Part shown: positions 59,918 to 64,000 of the stretch, in pieces
Numbering within the stretch: position 1 is the first letter of the stretch
Layout: every line of letters starts with the position of its first letter
From: an uncultured Candidatus Saccharibacteria bacterium
GTDB lineage: Bacteria > Patescibacteriota > Saccharimonadia > Saccharimonadales > JAGQNJ01
Direction: 5' to 3'
NCBI GenBank assembly: GCA_964510945.1
Contig: CAZEED010000001.1
Location: 98,774-162,773, forward strand
DNA: 64,000 bases
Made by a program: the position numbers and the translations under genes
The notes under the pieces: model-generated
Told to the model about the DNA's origin: nothing
Databases searched by the model: none
What the model saw: the letters and a program-made list of their open reading frames with translations, nothing else

Positions 59918-60765
59918 CGCAACCTCTAGTAAATCCTCGCACCAAAAATCAAGTTGATGATTTTATTAAAAATCCGTCACACGCTCTAATTATTTCTGGT
60001 CCTGACGGCTCAGGAAAAAATCAATTAACTGAATATATTTCACTGTCTATCCTCGAAACGTCTGATATAAATACTTATCCGTACTTACACAAAATCATGC
60101 CAATTGATAACAAACTTGGTATAGAACAAGTTAGAGAACTGCAAGAACTAACTAAACTTAAAATCCCTAGCAATAAAAGAATCTCTAGAATTGTAATAAT
60201 TGAAAAAGCAGATATTTTGGGTGACGAAGCCCAAAATGCACTGCTAAAAACATTAGAAGAGCCTCCAAAAGACACAATACTAATCTTAATTGTTAATGAT
60301 CAAAATAATCTACTGGGTACTGTAAGCTCAAGAGCAGTAACAATAGAGCTTTTACCTCCCACCAAAGATCAACTTTTAAAGCACTTTACTAATAAAGGTT
60401 TCGACAATACACAGGTTGAACGAGCGATCTTACTGGGATCTAACAGGCCGGAAATCATTAGCGACATACTAGAAAAGAATGAATCTAAATTCGAGAAATC
60501 AATATCTAAAGCAAAAGATATTCTGTCAAACAGTGAGTTTGATAGATTAGTTAAAATTAACGAACTGTCAAAAGACAAACAAGTTTCATCCGAGATTATA
60601 GATTCGCTAATACTAATTGCCCGATCAGCGATGAAGTCAGCAGCAAAACCGGAGCAAGTTAAACGCTGGCATAAGATACTTAAAAATGCTGATAAGGCAA
60701 AACAAATGATGGCCAAAAATGGCAATACCAAAATTATACTAACTGACTTGTTCTTGAACCTATAG
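59914..60765 (+). CDS. holB: DNA polymerase III delta' subunit (clamp-loader AAA+)
   Basis: GPDGSGKNQL P-loop variant, AQNALLKTLEEPP sensor motif. Confidence 0.72.
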   Translation: MTQPLVNPRTKNQVDDFIKNPSHALIISGPDGSGKNQLTEYISLSILETSDINTYPYLHKIMPIDNKLGIEQVRELQELTKLKIPSNKRISRIVIIEKADILGDEAQNALLKTLEEPPKDTILILIVNDQNNLLGTVSSRAVTIELLPPTKDQLLKHFTNKGFDNTQVERAILLGSNRPEIISDILEKNESKFEKSISKAKDILSNSEFDRLVKINELSKDKQVSSEIIDSLILIARSAMKSAAKPEQVKRWHKILKNADKAKQMMAKNGNTKIILTDLFLNL

Positions 60766-60780
60766 TATAATCATGTACAG

Positions 60781-61437
60781 ATGTTAGAACTATTATTTGT
60801 TATAGGATTTGGAGTTATCGCTTATCGGAGCGCTACAATTCGAGACGAGGATTTATCACCACTTCCGCGAAAACTTAGCGACAAACTAGGTCAATTATGG
60901 GGCATAGCCCACCAAGGGATGAAAGATAATAGCCTAATTCGGGCAGAAAAAGCCTTATTGACTATCCTTAAAATTGATAAAAAGAACGCTGCTGCCTATA
61001 ACCGTCTAGGAATCTTGTATGCAAAACAAAAAGAATACAAAGACGCCATAGATTGTTTTGAAATTGCTTCGAGCATCGAAGTTAGCCCGTCTAGTTTGCA
61101 CAACCTAGGTTTGATTTATTACGAAACAGAAAATTATGAAAAAGCCGCGACTGCGTTTGAGCAAGCTTTAAAACTTGAAGATAATCTTGCGGCAAGACAC
61201 GTAGCATACGCAAAAGTCCAAGAAAAATTAGGCAATAATAAACTCATGTTTGCAGAGCTAGAAAAGGCCGTAGAATTAGAGCCTACAAAAGAATCATTAA
61301 AATATCTTCATCAGGCTTATGAAAATAACGATATGCACGAACAAGCAAAAAGTATTCGTCGAAGACTAGACCGCGCGACCGTATCAAAAACAAAACCAAA
61401 AAAGCTTATTCGTCCAAAACGCAGAGTTGTTATTTAA
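60781..61437 (+). CDS. TPR-repeat protein with N-terminal membrane helix
   Basis: Repeated A..YN.LG..Y....Y..A...FE.AL pattern, three to four repeats. Confidence 0.7.
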   Translation: MLELLFVIGFGVIAYRSATIRDEDLSPLPRKLSDKLGQLWGIAHQGMKDNSLIRAEKALLTILKIDKKNAAAYNRLGILYAKQKEYKDAIDCFEIASSIEVSPSSLHNLGLIYYETENYEKAATAFEQALKLEDNLAARHVAYAKVQEKLGNNKLMFAELEKAVELEPTKESLKYLHQAYENNDMHEQAKSIRRRLDRATVSKTKPKKLIRPKRRVVI

Positions 61438-61612
61438 CCCCTGTTCTGATAAAATTTACAGGTACTTTTCGCTGTTTTAACCTAGCTTTTCAACCTAACG
61501 ATTCGATTTATTCGGCTCGAGCGATTGAAAGGCTAAGAAAAAGAAGCGACTAGAGATTGAAGGCAAATATTCGTAGAATGTTAGCGGAAAGTCGACCGTC
61601 GGTTCTGACGAG

Positions 61613-61689
61613 CCGCCTTAGCTCAGTTGGTTAGAGCGACGGTTTTGTAAACCGTAGGTCGTCGGTTCGAATCCGACAGGCGGCTCCAA
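61613..61689 (+). tRNA. tRNA-Thr (anticodon TGT), CCA encoded
   Basis: GCCGCCT/AGGCGGC acceptor, anticodon loop TTTGTAA, T-loop TTCGAAT. Confidence 0.92.
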
Positions 61690-61724
61690 AAGAGACGTAT
61701 GCAACTTTATGTTACAGGCGGCTC

Positions 61725-61737
61725 CACAGAAAACTTC
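61725..61737 (+). repeat. Direct repeat of the tRNA-Thr 3' end (ACAGGCGGCTCCA), copy 2
   Basis: Identical 13-mer to 61677-61689. Confidence 0.85.
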
Positions 61738-61790
61738 TACTAGTTTACTGGAGAGAAGTTTTCGAGGAAGCAACTGCAGCCCGAAGGGCT

Positions 61791-61803
61791 ACAGGCGGCT
61801 CCA
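61791..61803 (+). repeat. Direct repeat of the tRNA-Thr 3' end (ACAGGCGGCTCCA), copy 3
   Basis: Identical 13-mer; preceded by hairpin AGCCC-GAA-GGGCT in a T-arm-like position. Confidence 0.85.
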
Positions 61804-61918
61804 TCCTTCGTCGCTGAAGCTATGAAGGATAAACATATAGAATGCCATGCGAGAGCATTCTAGAACATTTGAGGTGAGTTCAGAGAAGTGTTGACGACCC
61901 GAAACTCGGGTCGTTTAC

Positions 61919-62004
61919 GCAGGGTTAGTGAAGCGGTCAAACACGGCAGACTGTAAATCTGCTGGCTTATGCCTTCGTAGGTTCGAATCCTACACCCTGC
62001 ACCA
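61919..62004 (+). tRNA. tRNA-Tyr (anticodon GTA), long variable arm, CCA encoded
   Basis: GCAGGGT/ACCCTGC acceptor, anticodon loop CTGTAAA, variable arm, T-loop TTCGAAT. Confidence 0.9.
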
Positions 62005-62011
62005 ACTATAG

Positions 62012-62036
62012 AATCCCGCATTTGTGGGATTTTTTA
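62012..62036 (+). terminator. Intrinsic terminator after tRNA-Tyr
   Basis: AATCCC...GGGATT stem followed by TTTTT. Confidence 0.65.
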
Positions 62037-62143
62037 GTTGGTCCTGATTAATAAATTCGAACCGACAGGCGAGAACAGTCGGGGACTGTTTGAGTTATAA
62101 ATATTTATAGCGAGATGCTTTAGCTCTCGAGCGGATAAATCAA

Positions 62144-62166
62144 TTCGAGTCCTACACCCTGCACCA
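62144..62166 (+). repeat. Direct repeat of the tRNA-Tyr 3' end (TTCGAGTCCTACACCCTGCACCA)
   Basis: 22/23 identical to 61982-62004. Confidence 0.85.
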
Positions 62167-62220
62167 ATTCTGTAAAGTATTAAGGACGTCAGAACCGCGT
62201 CCTTTTGTTATAGTAGAGTC

Positions 62221-62379
62221 ATGAATTGTCCTAAATGCAACAAACCGATGCTCAAAGTTCGCTCAGAAATTACCAACAACCTCAAATCAGGTAAAGACTT
62301 TAAGGAGTACAATAAGTTCACATATGAATGTAAAACTGATGACATCTGGGTAACTACTGAGACTCCTGTATCAAAATAG
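62221..62379 (+). CDS. Possible 52-aa zinc-ribbon-like peptide
   Basis: Hand translation MNCPKCNKPMLKVRSEITNNLKSGKDFKEYNKFTYECKTDDIWVTTETPVSK; CPKC plus a single distal Cys only. Confidence 0.3.
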   Translation: MNCPKCNKPMLKVRSEITNNLKSGKDFKEYNKFTYECKTDDIWVTTETPVSK

Positions 62380-62429
62380 ATCGTTATAATTGCTCAAAAG
62401 TTGCTAGAACCATAGCAAAACATAGTAAG

Positions 62430-62795
62430 ATGAAGTATGTAATGGTTGTTTCAGAAGTTGTTATTCATCACAAAGCACGATTTAATGTTGCTGTGCCAAT
62501 TACAACTGACGTAACAGGTGAATGTCTAGATATTGTTCAGGCATATTCAGATTCAATTCCCTCATTGGGAATACCTACATTAGAACATGTGATTCCTGGA
62601 CTAGTAGAAGTAGCATTAGTATCGTGGGAAGAAGCTAGATATAGCAAGAAAGTAATAGATTCATGGGTAAAAATTGGCGCGGGTAGGATATCGTTATCTG
62701 AACTATTCTATTGCCAACCCATACCTCATGATCCAAAAATTACGTATAATAGGGATGAACACTTCAAGCAATTAGAACTAGGTTTGCCAACATAG
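62430..62795 (+). CDS. Hypothetical protein
   Basis: 121-aa ORF, no motif recognised. Confidence 0.4.
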   Translation: MKYVMVVSEVVIHHKARFNVAVPITTDVTGECLDIVQAYSDSIPSLGIPTLEHVIPGLVEVALVSWEEARYSKKVIDSWVKIGAGRISLSELFYCQPIPHDPKITYNRDEHFKQLELGLPT

Positions 62796-62859
62796 CCCCG
62801 CCTGTCTGGTCAGAGGTAAAACATCCATACATATCGATTTTAAGTGGTACAATCAATAC

Positions 62860-63060
62860 ATGGAAAGAATTTCGATCCAAAAAACACCAATTGAAACAAA
62901 GTCCGATGGAGATCACGATACTTTATGGCTCGTAGAACCTAGCGAACAAGCTATAGTGGCTTTCGAAAGAAGAGAAGCCGAGATAATCATGGCAGAAACA
63001 CCTGACCCAGTCTTTGATGCAGATCACTGCATTGGAAGCCTGGTGCTAATGCCGACATAG
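62860..63060 (+). CDS. Hypothetical small acidic protein (3' end overlaps tRNA-Thr by 10 nt)
   Basis: 66-aa ORF only. Confidence 0.25.
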   Translation: MERISIQKTPIETKSDGDHDTLWLVEPSEQAIVAFERREAEIIMAETPDPVFDADHCIGSLVLMPT

Positions 63061-63125
63061 CTCAGGGGTAGAGCGCATCCATGGTAAGGATGAGGTCCTG
63101 GGTTCAAATCCCAGTGTCGGCTCCA
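63051..63125 (+). tRNA. tRNA-Thr (anticodon GGT), CCA encoded
   Basis: GCCGACA/TGTCGGC acceptor, anticodon loop ATGGTAA, T-loop TTCAAAT. Confidence 0.92.
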
Positions 63126-63171
63126 AAATTTATACTTGAATATATCAATCTAATCTGTTAATCTATACTTC

Positions 63172-63378
63172 ATGGCTAAAAAAACAGGTAAACGAAAAAC
63201 TATTGGACTTGTGAGCGAACTCTCAGGTCATCGTCATTATTACACCAACAAGAATCAACAAAATACTCCGGACAAATTAAGCATCAAAAAATACGATCCA
63301 GTAGCCCGAAAACACGCACTTTATACAGAGACAAAGAAGAGTTTGGGCCGCAACGAAGTCAAACCTCGTAAAAAATAG
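63172..63378 (+). CDS. rpmG: 50S ribosomal protein L33 (Cys-less, C-terminal extension)
   Basis: KRKTIGLVSELSGHRHYYTNKNQQNTPDKLSIKKYDPVARKHALYTETK matches the L33 pattern. Confidence 0.85.
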   Translation: MAKKTGKRKTIGLVSELSGHRHYYTNKNQQNTPDKLSIKKYDPVARKHALYTETKKSLGRNEVKPRKK

Positions 63379-63558
63379 TTATCCACACCCCCTCTATTGA
63401 CATTCAGTTTACGTCATGTAAGCTGGTCTTTGTGTCTTTTGTCAGTGAGAGTGGAACGCTGTATTAAAAAGCCCTGGACACACAAACATTAATTAGAAAC
63501 ATATTTCTAAAACAAAAATAACCTAAAAACAAAAGGGCAACAATTAAGAGGAGGTGTT

Positions 63559-64000
63559 ATGCGAAAACTCGCACTACTAGCGATGCTAGTATTGGGTGTA
63601 CTTTTTATTAGTACTACCACAGGATCAGCACATGCTGAAACAATTAAAAAAGTAAGCAAAAGTAAACAGAAAATCGTAACAGTACAAAGTGGTGACTCAT
63701 TAGTAAAAATTGCTAATAAGCACAAAACTACCTATAAACGCATTTTTGATGCGAACAAAAAAATAGAGAGTCCAGACTTGATCTTTCCAGGTCAAAAACT
63801 AAGGATTCCCAAGAAAAGTGAGAAGCTAAGGTCTAGAACAGTAGCACAAGTAGTCTCTGCGCCAGTGACGAGAACTCAACCAGTTGCTGTGGCAGCACCG
63901 CAACCCGCTCCTGCACCAGCCAACTACGCTACAGGCGACAGTGTTTGGGATCAGATTGCTGCATGCGAATCAGGCGGTAATTGGGCCATCAATACCGGCA
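63559..64000 (+). CDS. Secreted LysM-domain protein with Rpf-like transglycosylase domain (3' truncated by window end)
   Basis: Not in the ORF track because it runs off the end. SD AAGAGGAGGTG; signal peptide MRKLALLAMLVLGVLFISTTTGSAHA; LysM VTVQSGDSLVKIANKHKTTYKRIFDANK...LIFPGQKLRIP; Pro/Ala linker; GDSVWDQIAACESGGNWAINTG. Confidence 0.8.
   Translation, partial: MRKLALLAMLVLGVLFISTTTGSAHAETIKKVSKSKQKIVTVQSGDSLVKIANKHKTTYKRIFDANKKIESPDLIFPGQKLRIPKKSEKLRSRTVAQVVSAPVTRTQPVAVAAPQPAPAPANYATGDSVWDQIAACESGGNWAINTG

What the first reader, a model, noticed from the sequence alone, without database searches (positions are those of the whole stretch)
61613..61803. tRNA-Thr(TGT) 3' end present three times in direct repeat within 190 bp
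Seen: the 13-mer ACAGGCGGCTCCA, which comprises the 3' acceptor strand, discriminator and CCA, occurs at 61677-61689 (the genuine tRNA end), 61725-61737 and 61791-61803. The spacers are 35 and 53 nt and are full of small hairpins (GAAAACTTCT/AGAAGTTTTC, AGCCC-GAA-GGGCT). The third copy is preceded by a hairpin in a T-arm-like position.

Established: integrases of genomic islands and phages target tRNA 3' ends and leave direct repeats of exactly this segment.

Inference: there are two alternatives. These may be stacked att-site remnants from serial integration and deletion events at a hotspot. Or they may be functional acceptor-arm minihelix mimics co-transcribed with the tRNAs.
Basis: partly seen in the sequence, partly recalled or inferred. 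Interest (0 to 1): 0.55.

Follow-up and report, generated by a model that had tools for sequence, protein, structure and literature searches.

The report
tRNA-tail-capped hairpin modules after tRNA-Thr
The two extra copies of the tRNA-Thr 3' end each close a small conserved hairpin module in the spacer of a Saccharibacteria tRNA operon; this resembles the little-understood RtT repeats behind E. coli tRNA-Tyr and does not look like scars left by integrating phages.

Summary
The 13-mer ACAGGCGGCTCCA occurs three times, at 61676-61688 (the tRNA-Thr(TGT) end), 61714-61726 and 61791-61803. Chance does not explain it (0 of 100 shuffles).

The window is from a Saccharibacteria (CPR) genome. In 80 syntenic relatives the Thr-Tyr spacer ranges from 1 nt (empty) to 537 nt.

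The two extra copies end two related units:
- Module C, 38 nt.
- Module A, 77 nt, found in 9 species.

Module A has a strongly covarying hairpin (HP1) followed by a second hairpin (HP2). The tail copy is the 3' strand of HP2, and the 5' strand mimics the tRNA's 5' acceptor strand.

The tail copy always equals the local tRNA's tail. In L134 it carries the same two substitutions as the tRNA. In L173, two tandem units follow the other tRNA-Thr(GGT), and both of their strands are re-tuned to that tRNA.

No integrase, phage or plasmid counterpart was found.

The closest known analogue is the E. coli tyrT 178-bp repeat, RtT RNA. It has the same architecture, but the Rfam RtT model does not match.

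Best reading: co-transcribed, RtT-like trailer RNA modules with a tRNA-like 3' end. Their function is unknown. New variant of a known kind; moderate interest.

The parts
61612..61688 (+). tRNA-Thr(TGT) gene with encoded CCA. Its last 13 nt (61676-61688) are copy 1 of the repeated tail.
   Evidence: ARAGORN; Rfam tRNA 76.1 bits; exact 13-mer.
61689..61726 (+). Module C: a 25-nt spacer (AAAGAGACGTATGCAACTTTATGTT) plus tail copy 2 (61714-61726). It is predicted to form one imperfect hairpin (61692-61724) with the tail as the 3' strand.
   Evidence: Fold (-8.4 kcal/mol, z = -1.3; weak on its own). Identical apart from one substitution in strain L122. A homologous 19-nt unit is tandemly repeated in L137, where a G-C to A-T compensatory change matches that species' tail. 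Absent in the closest other species, L131 and L132.
61727..61803 (+). Module A (77 nt): HP1 hairpin 61729-61763, linker CGA, HP2 hairpin 61766-61802. HP2's 3' strand is tail copy 3 (61791-61803), and it encloses the small hairpin AGCCC-GAA-GGGCT (61778-61790).
   Evidence: Fold z = -4.3. Covariance model hits of 54-97 bits directly after tRNA-Thr(TGT) in 9 species, plus two units after tRNA-Thr(GGT) in L173. 13 of 22 pairs carry compensatory changes; 93% of cells are paired against 79% in shuffles (0 of 500) and 31-45% in slid controls.
61804..61830 (+). Hairpin TCCTTCGTCGCT..AGCTATGAAGGA directly after tail copy 3. In L131 and L145 the same hairpin, followed by a T-run, sits directly after the tRNA-Tyr CCA.
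   Evidence: Inverted repeat I12; fold; L131 and L145 sequences.
61836..61918 (+). Motif B: a conserved element just upstream of tRNA-Tyr. It comprises a P1 hairpin 61838-61862 with loop CATGCGAGA, a conserved TGAGG..AGTTCAGAGAAGTGTT stretch, and a GC hairpin 61893-61914.
   Evidence: Present in 20 related species at the same position. Fold of 61804-61918 has z = -5.5. No Rfam match.
61919..62004 (+). tRNA-Thr's downstream partner, tRNA-Tyr(GTA), with encoded CCA.
   Evidence: ARAGORN; Rfam tRNA 62.7 bits.
62005..62167 (+). tRNA-Tyr trailer module. It holds a terminator-like hairpin plus T-run (62013-62035), a structured region with GAGAAC-hairpin-GTTTGAG and AGCGAGA/CTCGAGCG words, and a copy of the last 24 nt of tRNA-Tyr (62144-62167, 1 mismatch).
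   Evidence: Repeat D1 and inverted repeat I1. Equivalent Tyr-tail duplications at +125 to +179 occur at 10 of 63 tRNA-Tyr genes counted, in 8 distinct genomes.
63051..63125 (+). tRNA-Thr(GGT), third member of the conserved Thr-Tyr-Thr cluster. It has no tail repeat in this window but carries two tandem module-A-like units in L173.
   Evidence: ARAGORN; L173 9890-10039.

Best explanation
The three 13-mers are the true tRNA-Thr(TGT) 3' end plus the 3' ends of two tandem, related RNA modules (C, 38 nt; A, 77 nt) in the transcribed spacer between tRNA-Thr and tRNA-Tyr of a Saccharibacteria genome.

Each module is a stem-loop. Its 3' strand is an exact copy of the upstream tRNA's last 12-13 nt through CCA. 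Its 5' strand imitates the tRNA's 5' acceptor strand. Module A has an additional upstream hairpin, HP1.

Shown:
- The modules are a conserved, covarying family tied to tRNA-Thr genes.
- The tail and its partner strand track the local tRNA.
- Copy number varies through tandem stacking.

Inferred:
- The units are co-transcribed with the tRNAs.
- They arise, and change in number, by unequal recombination or slippage between tail repeats.
- The tRNA-like ends act as punctuation for the tRNA-maturation machinery (RNase P at the 5' side of the mimic stem, 3' trimming to CCA). The spacer would thus be cut into discrete small hairpin RNAs, and the extra tails would be kept from mispairing with the real tRNA 5' strand.

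This is the design of the E. coli tyrT 178-bp repeats (RtT/RttR RNA). The cellular role of the released RNAs is unknown.
For: Family and structure:
- Module A was found by covariance model only directly downstream of tRNA-Thr genes, in 918 kb of related loci.
- 13 of 22 pairs have compensatory changes. Cells are 93% paired against 79% in shuffles (0 of 500) and 31-45% in slid controls.
- Within the window species, strain L122 shows three A-T to T-A flips in HP1.
- The whole trailer folds with z = -6.4.

The tail is maintained:
- Among the 9 TGT-type units, HP1 is 62% identical and the tail 97% identical. The only tail differences (L134, ATAGGTGGCTCCA) are mirrored in that species' tRNA.
- L231 shows what decay looks like: 3 tail mismatches and broken stems.

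Both strands track the tRNA:
- The two units after tRNA-Thr(GGT) in L173 end in ACGACGGCTCCA.
- They carry GCCGT(T)CG or ACGT(A)CG as the partner strand, restoring the acceptor stem of that tRNA.
- L134 has GCCGC opposite GTGGC.
- Module C in L137 changes G-C to A-T together with its tail.

Other points:
- Repeat identity ends exactly at CCA in all module types and tRNAs examined (Thr-TGT, Thr-GGT, Tyr, Trp).
- No + strand terminator-like site lies between tRNA-Thr and tRNA-Tyr. A terminator hairpin follows tRNA-Tyr.

Precedent in E. coli MG1655:
- The last 19 nt of tRNA-Tyr occur 6 times.
- RttR ends at a tail CCA.
- The Rfam RtT consensus pairs the tail with an upstream strand.
Against: - There are no expression or end-mapping data, so transcription, processing and any function are inferred.
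- The Rfam RtT model does not match any Saccharibacteria unit, even at E <= 10. The relationship to RtT is therefore one of design, not demonstrated homology.
- The outer HP2 helix (GGA.GC/GC.TCC) is almost invariant within the TGT type. Its support rests on comparison across types: L134 and two L173 units.
- Predicted pairing of the discriminator and CC with GGA is unlike a good RNase P or aminoacylation substrate.
- Module C alone is not significantly structured (z = -1.3).
- The G.U versus A.C count (12 versus 6) only weakly favours an RNA on the + strand over a DNA-level hairpin.
- Module A distribution on the tree is patchy, which also fits mobility.
Confidence: 0.55

Rival explanations
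1. Small non-autonomous mobile or duplicative DNA elements home to the 3' end of tRNA genes. The element recognises the tail, perhaps through its internal complementary strand as single-stranded DNA or RNA. It inserts right after CCA and carries or regenerates a tail copy at its own 3' end. That copy then becomes the target for the next insertion, producing stacks.
For: - Patchy distribution of module A on the species tree.
- Precise presence or absence at the tail junction: window versus L131, L136 versus L133.
- Tandem stacks: window C+A, L137 C+C, L173 A+A.
- Spread from tRNA-Thr(TGT) to tRNA-Thr(GGT) within L173, with similar HP1 apical loops.
- The locus hosts other mobile DNA: a serine recombinase, HNH endonuclease ORFs and variable cargo.
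Against: - No transposase or recombinase is associated with the units.
- No copies occur away from tRNA-Thr genes in 918 kb searched.
- The module-A core-plus-tail pattern gave no hit in viral contigs and only chance hits in JGI metagenomes, and the Thr-Tyr spacer has no match in phages or plasmids.
- There are no terminal inverted repeats.
- Strong purifying selection on structure over long divergence is more typical of a host RNA.
- Unequal crossing-over between tails explains precise gain and loss without a dedicated enzyme.
Confidence: 0.17
2. The copies are stacked att-site scars. Successive integrative elements (phages or islands) recombined with the tRNA-Thr 3' end and were later lost by deletion, leaving attL/attR core copies with short arm remnants.
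For: - tRNA 3' ends are classic integrase targets (established knowledge).
- Relatives show empty sites with 1-14-nt Thr-Tyr spacers.
- The tRNA cluster is flanked by highly variable cargo.
- L165 and L191 carry inserts whose identity to the tRNA starts in the T-loop, as at integrase crossover sites.
- A large serine recombinase lies next to tRNA-Thr(GGT) in L225, L146 and L177.
Against: - The inserts are only 25 and 64 nt.
- They are conserved, covarying structures.
- Tail copies are kept identical to the local tRNA while the flanks diverge.
- The internal partner strand co-varies with the tail.
- Identity always ends exactly at CCA.
- No integrase was seen in the window near the locus or, by eye, in the larger inter-tRNA ORFs of the 80 loci.
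- No attP-like counterpart exists in viral contigs, phages, plasmids or JGI metagenomes.
- The serine-recombinase element is not flanked by tail repeats.
Confidence: 0.1
3. The units are decaying partial duplicates of tRNA genes (pseudo-tRNA fragments) with no function. The tails are kept similar only by gene conversion with the adjacent tRNA.
For: - The period of 77 nt equals the tRNA length.
- Other tRNA fragments litter the region: a Thr T-arm-like ATTCGAACCGACAGGCG at 62055-62071, and a tRNA 5'-like GATGCTTTAGCTC at 62114-62126.
- L231 shows a decayed unit.
- E. coli RtT also looks derived from tRNA-Tyr variable-arm and T-arm sequence (my reading).
Against: - Apart from the tail, module A has no similarity to tRNA-Thr.
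- HP1 shows many compensatory changes, which require selection on structure.
- Gene conversion cannot re-tune the internal 5' strand, which lies in a different order from that in a tRNA gene.
Confidence: 0.1

Closest known systems
E. coli tyrT locus 178-bp repeats / RtT RNA (rttR, Rfam RF00391)
   Same: - It lies in a tRNA operon spacer and trailer.
- Units are tandem, and each ends in an exact copy of the upstream tRNA's 3' tail through CCA. In MG1655 the 19-nt tail occurs 6 times.
- The annotated sRNA ends at a tail CCA.
- In the Rfam consensus the tail is the 3' strand of the closing helix.
- Copy number is variable.
- Function is poorly defined. It is described as released during tRNA processing and linked to responses to amino-acid limitation (PMC4986893, citing Bosl and Kersten 1991).
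- Longer Saccharibacteria units (L204, L195) also share a 19-nt tail identity starting AAUCC/AACCC, and GGATGAGAAC..GGTTCGA words.
   Different: - There is no match to the Rfam RtT model at E <= 10.
- The units here are much shorter: 38 and 77 nt against 178.
- They are attached to tRNA-Thr, not tRNA-Tyr.
- The identity is 13 nt, not 19.
- The partner strand mimics the acceptor 5' strand and also covers the discriminator and CC, whereas RtT pairs the T-stem and proximal acceptor part and leaves 8 nt single-stranded.
- The host is a CPR bacterium.
attL/attR direct repeats of integrases that target tRNA 3' ends (phages, genomic islands, ICEs)
   Same: Direct repeats of the tRNA 3' segment lie downstream of the gene. 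Relatives show empty and occupied states. The locus is a variable hotspot.
   Different: - The inserts are tens of nucleotides, with no integrase.
- The repeats end exactly at CCA.
- The repeat is embedded in a conserved hairpin whose other strand co-varies with it.
- No attP counterpart was found.
tRNA acceptor-TΨC minihelices and other non-tRNA RNase P substrates (e.g. phage P1/P7 C4 RNA precursor, 4.5S RNA precursor; from my own knowledge)
   Same: A hairpin carries an acceptor-like stem, a stacked short stem-loop and a 3' NCCA. In the L173 tRNA-Thr(GGT) units all 7 acceptor base pairs are reproduced. The window unit keeps G1-C72 and C2-G71 plus discriminator U.
   Different: The T-loop is replaced by a 3-nt loop. 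The acceptor mimic is interrupted (an AA/GCG internal loop in the TGT type). NCC is predicted to be paired with an upstream GGA. Cleavage and charging are untested.
Functional tRNA spacer RNAs such as 3'ETS-leuZ of E. coli (from my own knowledge)
   Same: Stable, functional small RNAs can be carved out of tRNA operon spacers by the tRNA processing machinery.
   Different: Those act by sRNA sponging through Hfq-dependent pairing. They do not carry copies of the tRNA tail.

Membership tests
Rfam RtT (RF00391) | Scores at or above the family's gathering threshold (45 bits) with the RtT covariance model | tested here: not met
   No RtT hit in window 60500-64000 at E <= 1, in window 61686-62170 at E <= 10, in the L204 unit at E <= 10, or in L195 and L165 at E <= 5. 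The E. coli control scored 133-137 bits.
Rfam RtT (RF00391) | Located in a tRNA operon trailer or spacer; the unit ends in an exact copy of the upstream tRNA's 3' tail including CCA; tandem repetition | tested here: met
   Window units are at 61689-61726 and 61727-61803. The E. coli layout was verified.
Rfam RtT (RF00391) | The tail copy forms the 3' strand of the closing helix of the unit | tested here: met
   Folds; the RtT consensus structure.
Rfam RtT (RF00391) | Released as a discrete RNA from the tRNA primary transcript | not testable with these tools
   No expression data. The only support is the absence of a terminator between the tRNAs.
tRNA-targeting integrase att scars | Integrase or recombinase gene within or next to the repeat-bounded segment, now or in relatives | tested here: not met
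   The ORFs next to the locus are TPR, holB, L33, LysM/Rpf and three small ORFs with no Pfam or PHROG hit. No recombinase was recognised by eye among the 10 largest inter-tRNA ORFs of the 80 loci. The serine recombinase in L225 and L146 lies beside tRNA-Thr(GGT) and is not bounded by tail repeats.
tRNA-targeting integrase att scars | A matching attP (tail flanked by the insert's arm sequences) on a phage, plasmid or island | tested here: not met
   Viral contigs gave 0 hits for the module-plus-tail pattern. The JGI metagenome scan gave only chance hits. The 14-mer hits in viral contigs are unrelated coding DNA. There were no blastn hits in phages or plasmids.
tRNA-targeting integrase att scars | Empty site in relatives | tested here: met
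   The Thr-Tyr spacer is 1-14 nt in L166, L175, L194, L197, L172, L189 and others.
tRNA acceptor-TΨC minihelix | 7-bp acceptor stem identical to that of the tRNA | tested here: inconclusive
   In the window unit, 5 of 7 acceptor positions are paired, with an AA/GCG internal loop. L134 has 5 contiguous pairs. L173 GGT unit 1 has 7 of 7 with one bulged U.
tRNA acceptor-TΨC minihelix | Stacked 5-bp T-stem with a 7-nt GTTCRANYC loop, and a single-stranded NCCA | tested here: not met
   The stem is 5 bp, but the loop is GAA, ACA or GTC (3 nt). N, C and C are predicted to pair with GGA, leaving only the terminal A free.
MITE/IS-like mobile element | Terminal inverted repeats, and dispersed copies at unrelated sites | tested here: not met
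   There are no terminal inverted repeats. The covariance model finds units only directly after tRNA-Thr genes in 918 kb. Whole genomes could not be searched.

The most novel reading that the evidence does not exclude
Saccharibacteria, and perhaps many bacteria, carry an overlooked class of tRNA-coupled 'tail-capped' minihelix RNAs. These are acceptor-stem mimics re-tuned to each cognate tRNA, and they are released from tRNA operons by RNase P and 3' trimming. In these reduced genomes they would act either as surrogate processing sites for the upstream tRNA's 3' end, or as tRNA-Thr 3'-end mimics (decoys or sensors for ThrRS, uncharged-tRNA signalling or tRNA-targeting toxins). Enterobacterial RtT would then be one branch of an ancient, widespread design.
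Probability: 0.2. Interest if true: 0.7.

Novelty: new variant of a known kind. Interest (0 to 1): 0.5.

Why it matters
Repeats of a tRNA 3' end are routinely read as integrase footprints. This case shows that the same signature can instead mark a conserved structured RNA module whose two strands co-evolve with the neighbouring tRNA.

It gives the long-neglected E. coli RtT/tyrT repeats a structural counterpart in a very distant, genome-reduced phylum. That suggests a general, still unexplained role for tRNA-tail mimics in tRNA operons, whether in processing punctuation, folding insulation or tRNA mimicry.

The hypothesis can be tested directly by end-mapping small RNAs in cultivable Saccharibacteria and by in vitro RNase P and ThrRS assays.

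It also warns annotators of CPR genomes against calling genomic islands from tRNA-tail repeats alone.

Tried and rejected
- A viral-contig scan with the 14-mer TACAGGCGGCTCCA gave more than 120 hits. All but two lay outside any tRNA gene, and those I inspected were unrelated sequence, mostly coding, so the scan was uninformative.
- Viral and JGI-metagenome scans with the module-A core plus tail (CGAGGRAGCAACTGN{8,25}GGCTCCA) gave 0 hits and 6 chance hits.
- Rfam scans of the region and of related units found only tRNAs. RtT was not found.
- Pfam and PHROG searches on the small ORFs 62221-63060 found nothing.
- I looked for integrases in the variable inter-tRNA segments of 80 relatives. By eye the largest ORFs look metabolic or housekeeping-like (amidophosphoribosyltransferase-like, Clp-type ATPase, ATP-grasp, glycosyl hydrolase-like). 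I did not run Pfam on them.
- blastn of the spacer against phage and plasmid collections gave no match.
- I considered a CRISPR-like array, a terminator or attenuator, a permuted or split tRNA, IS200/IS605-type hairpin ends, a group II intron remnant and a retron. I rejected these for lack of their defining parts (repeat length, U-run, transposase or RT gene, appropriate ends).
- I considered that module A is a decayed tandem tRNA-Thr copy because its 77-nt period equals the tRNA length. No sequence similarity outside the tail supports this.
- Bosl and Kersten 1991 (PMC329039) could not be read. What I say about RtT function comes from a secondary citation (PMC4986893) and my own recollection.
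Full report
OBSERVATION

ARAGORN and Rfam place tRNA-Thr(TGT) at 61612-61688, tRNA-Tyr(GTA) at 61919-62004 and tRNA-Thr(GGT) at 63051-63125, all on the + strand with encoded CCA. The 13-mer ACAGGCGGCTCCA occurs exactly three times in the 64-kb window: at 61676-61688 (the tRNA end), 61714-61726 and 61791-61803. None of 100 dinucleotide-preserving shuffles reached the observed count.

The spacers are 25 and 64 nt, and start-to-start distances are 38 and 77 nt. A 24-nt copy of the tRNA-Tyr 3' end, with 1 mismatch, lies at 62144-62167.

CONTEXT

The window has about 40% G+C and is dense with housekeeping genes on the + strand. The tRNA cluster is flanked by TrpRS, RluD, DNA polymerase III delta', a TPR protein, L33 and a LysM/Rpf-type protein.

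The TPR protein retrieves 80 syntenic loci, nearly all titled Candidatus Saccharibacteria or Saccharimonadales. The gene order TPR, tRNA-Thr(TGT), tRNA-Tyr, tRNA-Thr(GGT) is conserved, sometimes with the Thr/Tyr pair inverted.

The Thr-Tyr spacer ranges from 1 nt (L166, L175, L194, L197) to 537 nt. The Tyr to Thr(GGT) distance ranges from 5 nt to 5.5 kb and holds unrelated cargo. The locus is therefore a hotspot with clear empty states.

Contigs carrying the identical TPR protein mostly break inside or just after tRNA-Thr.

WHAT THE EXTRA COPIES BELONG TO

In nine species or strains (window, L122, L131, L132, L134, L135, L136, L173, L187) the tRNA-Thr CCA is followed by a conserved unit of 71-79 nt. 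I call it module A, and it ends in that genome's own 13-nt tail.

Module A folds into two hairpins:
- HP1, a long irregular hairpin with an apical CAG-NNNN-CTG.
- HP2, in which the tail is the 3' strand: GGA-A-GC-AA-CTG-C-[AGCCC GAA GGGCT]-A-CAG-GCG-GC-TCC-A.

A covariance model built from these nine finds units only directly after tRNA-Thr genes in 918 kb of related sequence. On the 12-unit model alignment:
- 93.1% of cells are paired, against 78.8% in column shuffles (0 of 500) and 31-45% when partners are slid.
- 13 of 22 pairs carry compensatory changes.

A divergent strain of the window species (L122) already shows three A-T to T-A flips in HP1.

The window, and L122, carry a second, shorter unit between the tRNA and module A. 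This is module C: 25 nt plus the tail. It shares the GCAAC word with HP2 and folds into one imperfect hairpin, again with the tail as the 3' strand. L137 has a homologous 19-nt unit in tandem. There, a G-C pair has become A-T together with that species' tail variant.

So the three 13-mers are the tRNA end, the end of module C and the end of module A.

WHY THESE ARE NOT NEUTRAL SCARS

- Divergence pattern. Among the nine TGT-type units, HP1 is on average 62% identical and the linker/5'-strand region 70%, but the tail copies are 97% identical. The only deviations (L134, ATAGGTGGCTCCA) are exactly the two substitutions found in that species' tRNA.
- What decay looks like. L231 has a tail copy with 3 mismatches and eroded stems.
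- The L173 units. Two tandem module-A-like units follow the other tRNA-Thr(GGT). They end in ACGACGGCTCCA, that tRNA's tail. Their internal partner strand has changed to GCCGT(T)CG or ACGT(A)CG, which restores the 7-bp acceptor stem of tRNA-Thr(GGT). The small AGCCC..GGGYT hairpin stays module-specific. L134 likewise has GCCGC opposite GTGGC.
- What a scar predicts. A recombination scar or target-site duplication does not predict that an internal strand follows the tail. Selection on the hairpin does.
- Where identity ends. Tail duplication is frequent at these loci. Per tRNA gene counted, it occurs at Thr(TGT) 16 of 69, Tyr 10 of 63, Thr(GGT) 2 of 54 and Trp 1 of 19. These counts include several near-identical strain contigs of the window species. 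Identity ends exactly at CCA in every case.

INTEGRASE HYPOTHESIS

- Nothing recombinase-like lies near the locus in the window.
- The larger ORFs in the variable inter-tRNA segments of the relatives look, by eye, metabolic or housekeeping-like.
- The module-plus-tail pattern is absent from IMG/VR contigs and gave only chance hits in JGI metagenomes.
- The spacer has no blastn match in phage or plasmid collections.
- The 14-mer hits in viral contigs are unrelated sequence.
- Mobile DNA does visit the locus. A 553-aa large serine recombinase bracketed by perfect inverted repeats of about 120 bp sits directly after tRNA-Thr(GGT) in L219, L220 and L225, with homologues in L146 and L177. HNH endonuclease ORFs sit between the TPR gene and tRNA-Thr in L227 and L228. 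None of these is associated with tail repeats.
- L165 and L191 have inserts whose identity to the tRNA starts in the T-loop. Those could be recombination products.

CLOSEST KNOWN SYSTEM

The E. coli tyrT locus has the same signature. In MG1655:
- The last 19 nt of tRNA-Tyr occur six times: in tyrT, in the tyrT-tyrV spacer, in tyrV and in three 178-nt repeats.
- The annotated sRNA RttR runs from just after tyrV to the CCA of the first repeat.
- Rfam's RtT consensus pairs the tail with an upstream strand as the closing helix.

The longer Saccharibacteria units (L204 and L195 after tRNA-Thr; the Tyr trailers, including window 62005-62167) share further features with RtT. These are a 19-nt tail identity starting AAUCC/AACCC, GGATGAGAAC..GGTTCGA, and a CACAG-hairpin-CGAG element that resembles HP1 of module A.

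However, the RtT model matches none of them, even at E <= 10 in tiny search spaces. I therefore claim similarity of design, not family membership.

MECHANISM

Shown: this is a conserved, structured module family tied to tRNA-Thr genes. The tail and its partner strand track the tRNA. The units stack in tandem.

Inferred:
1. The units are part of the Thr-Tyr transcript. There is no + strand terminator-like site between the genes, and a terminator hairpin with a T-run follows tRNA-Tyr.
2. The tRNA-like ends serve as processing punctuation and keep the extra tails from competing for the real tRNA's 5' strand.
3. Units are gained and lost by unequal recombination or slippage between tails. This explains the window's C+A stack, the C+C stack in L137, the A+A stack in L173 and the precise absences in L131 and L133.

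Weak points:
- There are no expression data.
- The outer HP2 helix is nearly invariant within the TGT type.
- Predicted pairing of N-C-C is unlike a canonical RNase P or aminoacylation substrate.
- The G.U over A.C excess is only 12 to 6.
- Distribution on a poorly resolved neighbour-joining tree is patchy, which leaves room for a mobile-element reading.

VERDICT

The att-scar reading is disfavoured. The minihelix-mimic reading is partly right.

The feature is best described as RtT-like, tRNA-tail-capped trailer modules in a Saccharibacteria tRNA operon. This is a new variant of a known but poorly understood kind, and of moderate interest.

Noticed in passing
window 61836-61918; same position in L132-L136, L144, L145, L147, L154, L159, L161, L173, L178, L184, L187, L195, L196, L201: A conserved element of about 80 nt ('motif B') lies immediately upstream of tRNA-Tyr in about 20 Saccharibacteria. 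It has a hairpin with loop (A/U)UGCGAGA, then UGAGG..AGUCAGGGAGGUGUU (often followed by ACAAU, resembling an extended -10), then a variable GC-rich hairpin. It has no Rfam match. It could be a promoter or leader, or a new small RNA.
   Followed up: partly
window 62005-62167: The tRNA-Tyr 3' end (24 nt, 1 mismatch) is duplicated 139 nt downstream of the gene, after a terminator-like hairpin. The segment between holds a tRNA-Thr T-arm-like fragment (62055-62071), RtT-like words (GAGAAC-hairpin-GTTTGAG, AGCGAGA, CTCGAGCG) and a 5' strand complementary to the tail. Similar Tyr-tail duplications occur at 10 of 63 tRNA-Tyr genes counted (8 distinct genomes).
   Followed up: partly
L225 11281-13280 (also L219/L220 3781-5657; L146 8453-10054; L177 7163-8605): A 553-aa large serine recombinase (Resolvase, Recombinase and Zn-ribbon domains) is bracketed by perfect inverted repeats of about 120 bp. 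It is inserted directly after tRNA-Thr(GGT), between the tRNA and rpmG, in relatives of the window organism. It could drive the inversions and cargo turnover seen at this locus.
   Followed up: partly
L227 2209-2667; L228 (same position): An HNH endonuclease ORF (152 aa) is inserted between the TPR gene and tRNA-Thr(TGT) in two relatives.
   Followed up: no
window 61480-61611; L131 spacer upstream of tRNA-Tyr; L127/L128, L168, L229, L231 upstream of tRNAs: Leader modules are shuffled between tRNAs. The ~130-nt sequence upstream of tRNA-Thr in the window (..CTCGAGCGATTGAAAGGCTAAGA..GACCGTCGGTTCTGACGA) lies upstream of tRNA-Tyr in L131. A different leader (GGGAAAGAGCAGC..GATGAGAAAAACC..GTTTGTCTCAT) replaces it in strains L127 and L128, and recurs before tRNAs in L168, L229 and L231.
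   Followed up: no
L145, L159, L160, L183, L195, L196, L202 versus the window: The tRNA-Thr(TGT)/tRNA-Tyr pair is inverted relative to the flanking TPR gene in several species. The Tyr to Thr(GGT) interval varies from 5 nt to 5.5 kb with unrelated cargo, including a PurF-like amidotransferase in L122, L206 and others.
   Followed up: partly
L124, L126, L127, L129, L130 (contig ends): Many metagenomic contigs that carry the identical TPR protein end inside or just after tRNA-Thr(TGT). This suggests assembly breaks caused by the repeats or by strain heterogeneity at this locus.
   Followed up: no
L134 8924-9004: tRNA-Trp(CCA) is followed by an 81-nt unit ending in a 14-nt copy of its own tail. 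The unit contains an ACAGCCC-GCT-GGGCTGT hairpin like the small hairpin of module A, but has no evident strand complementary to the tail.
   Followed up: no
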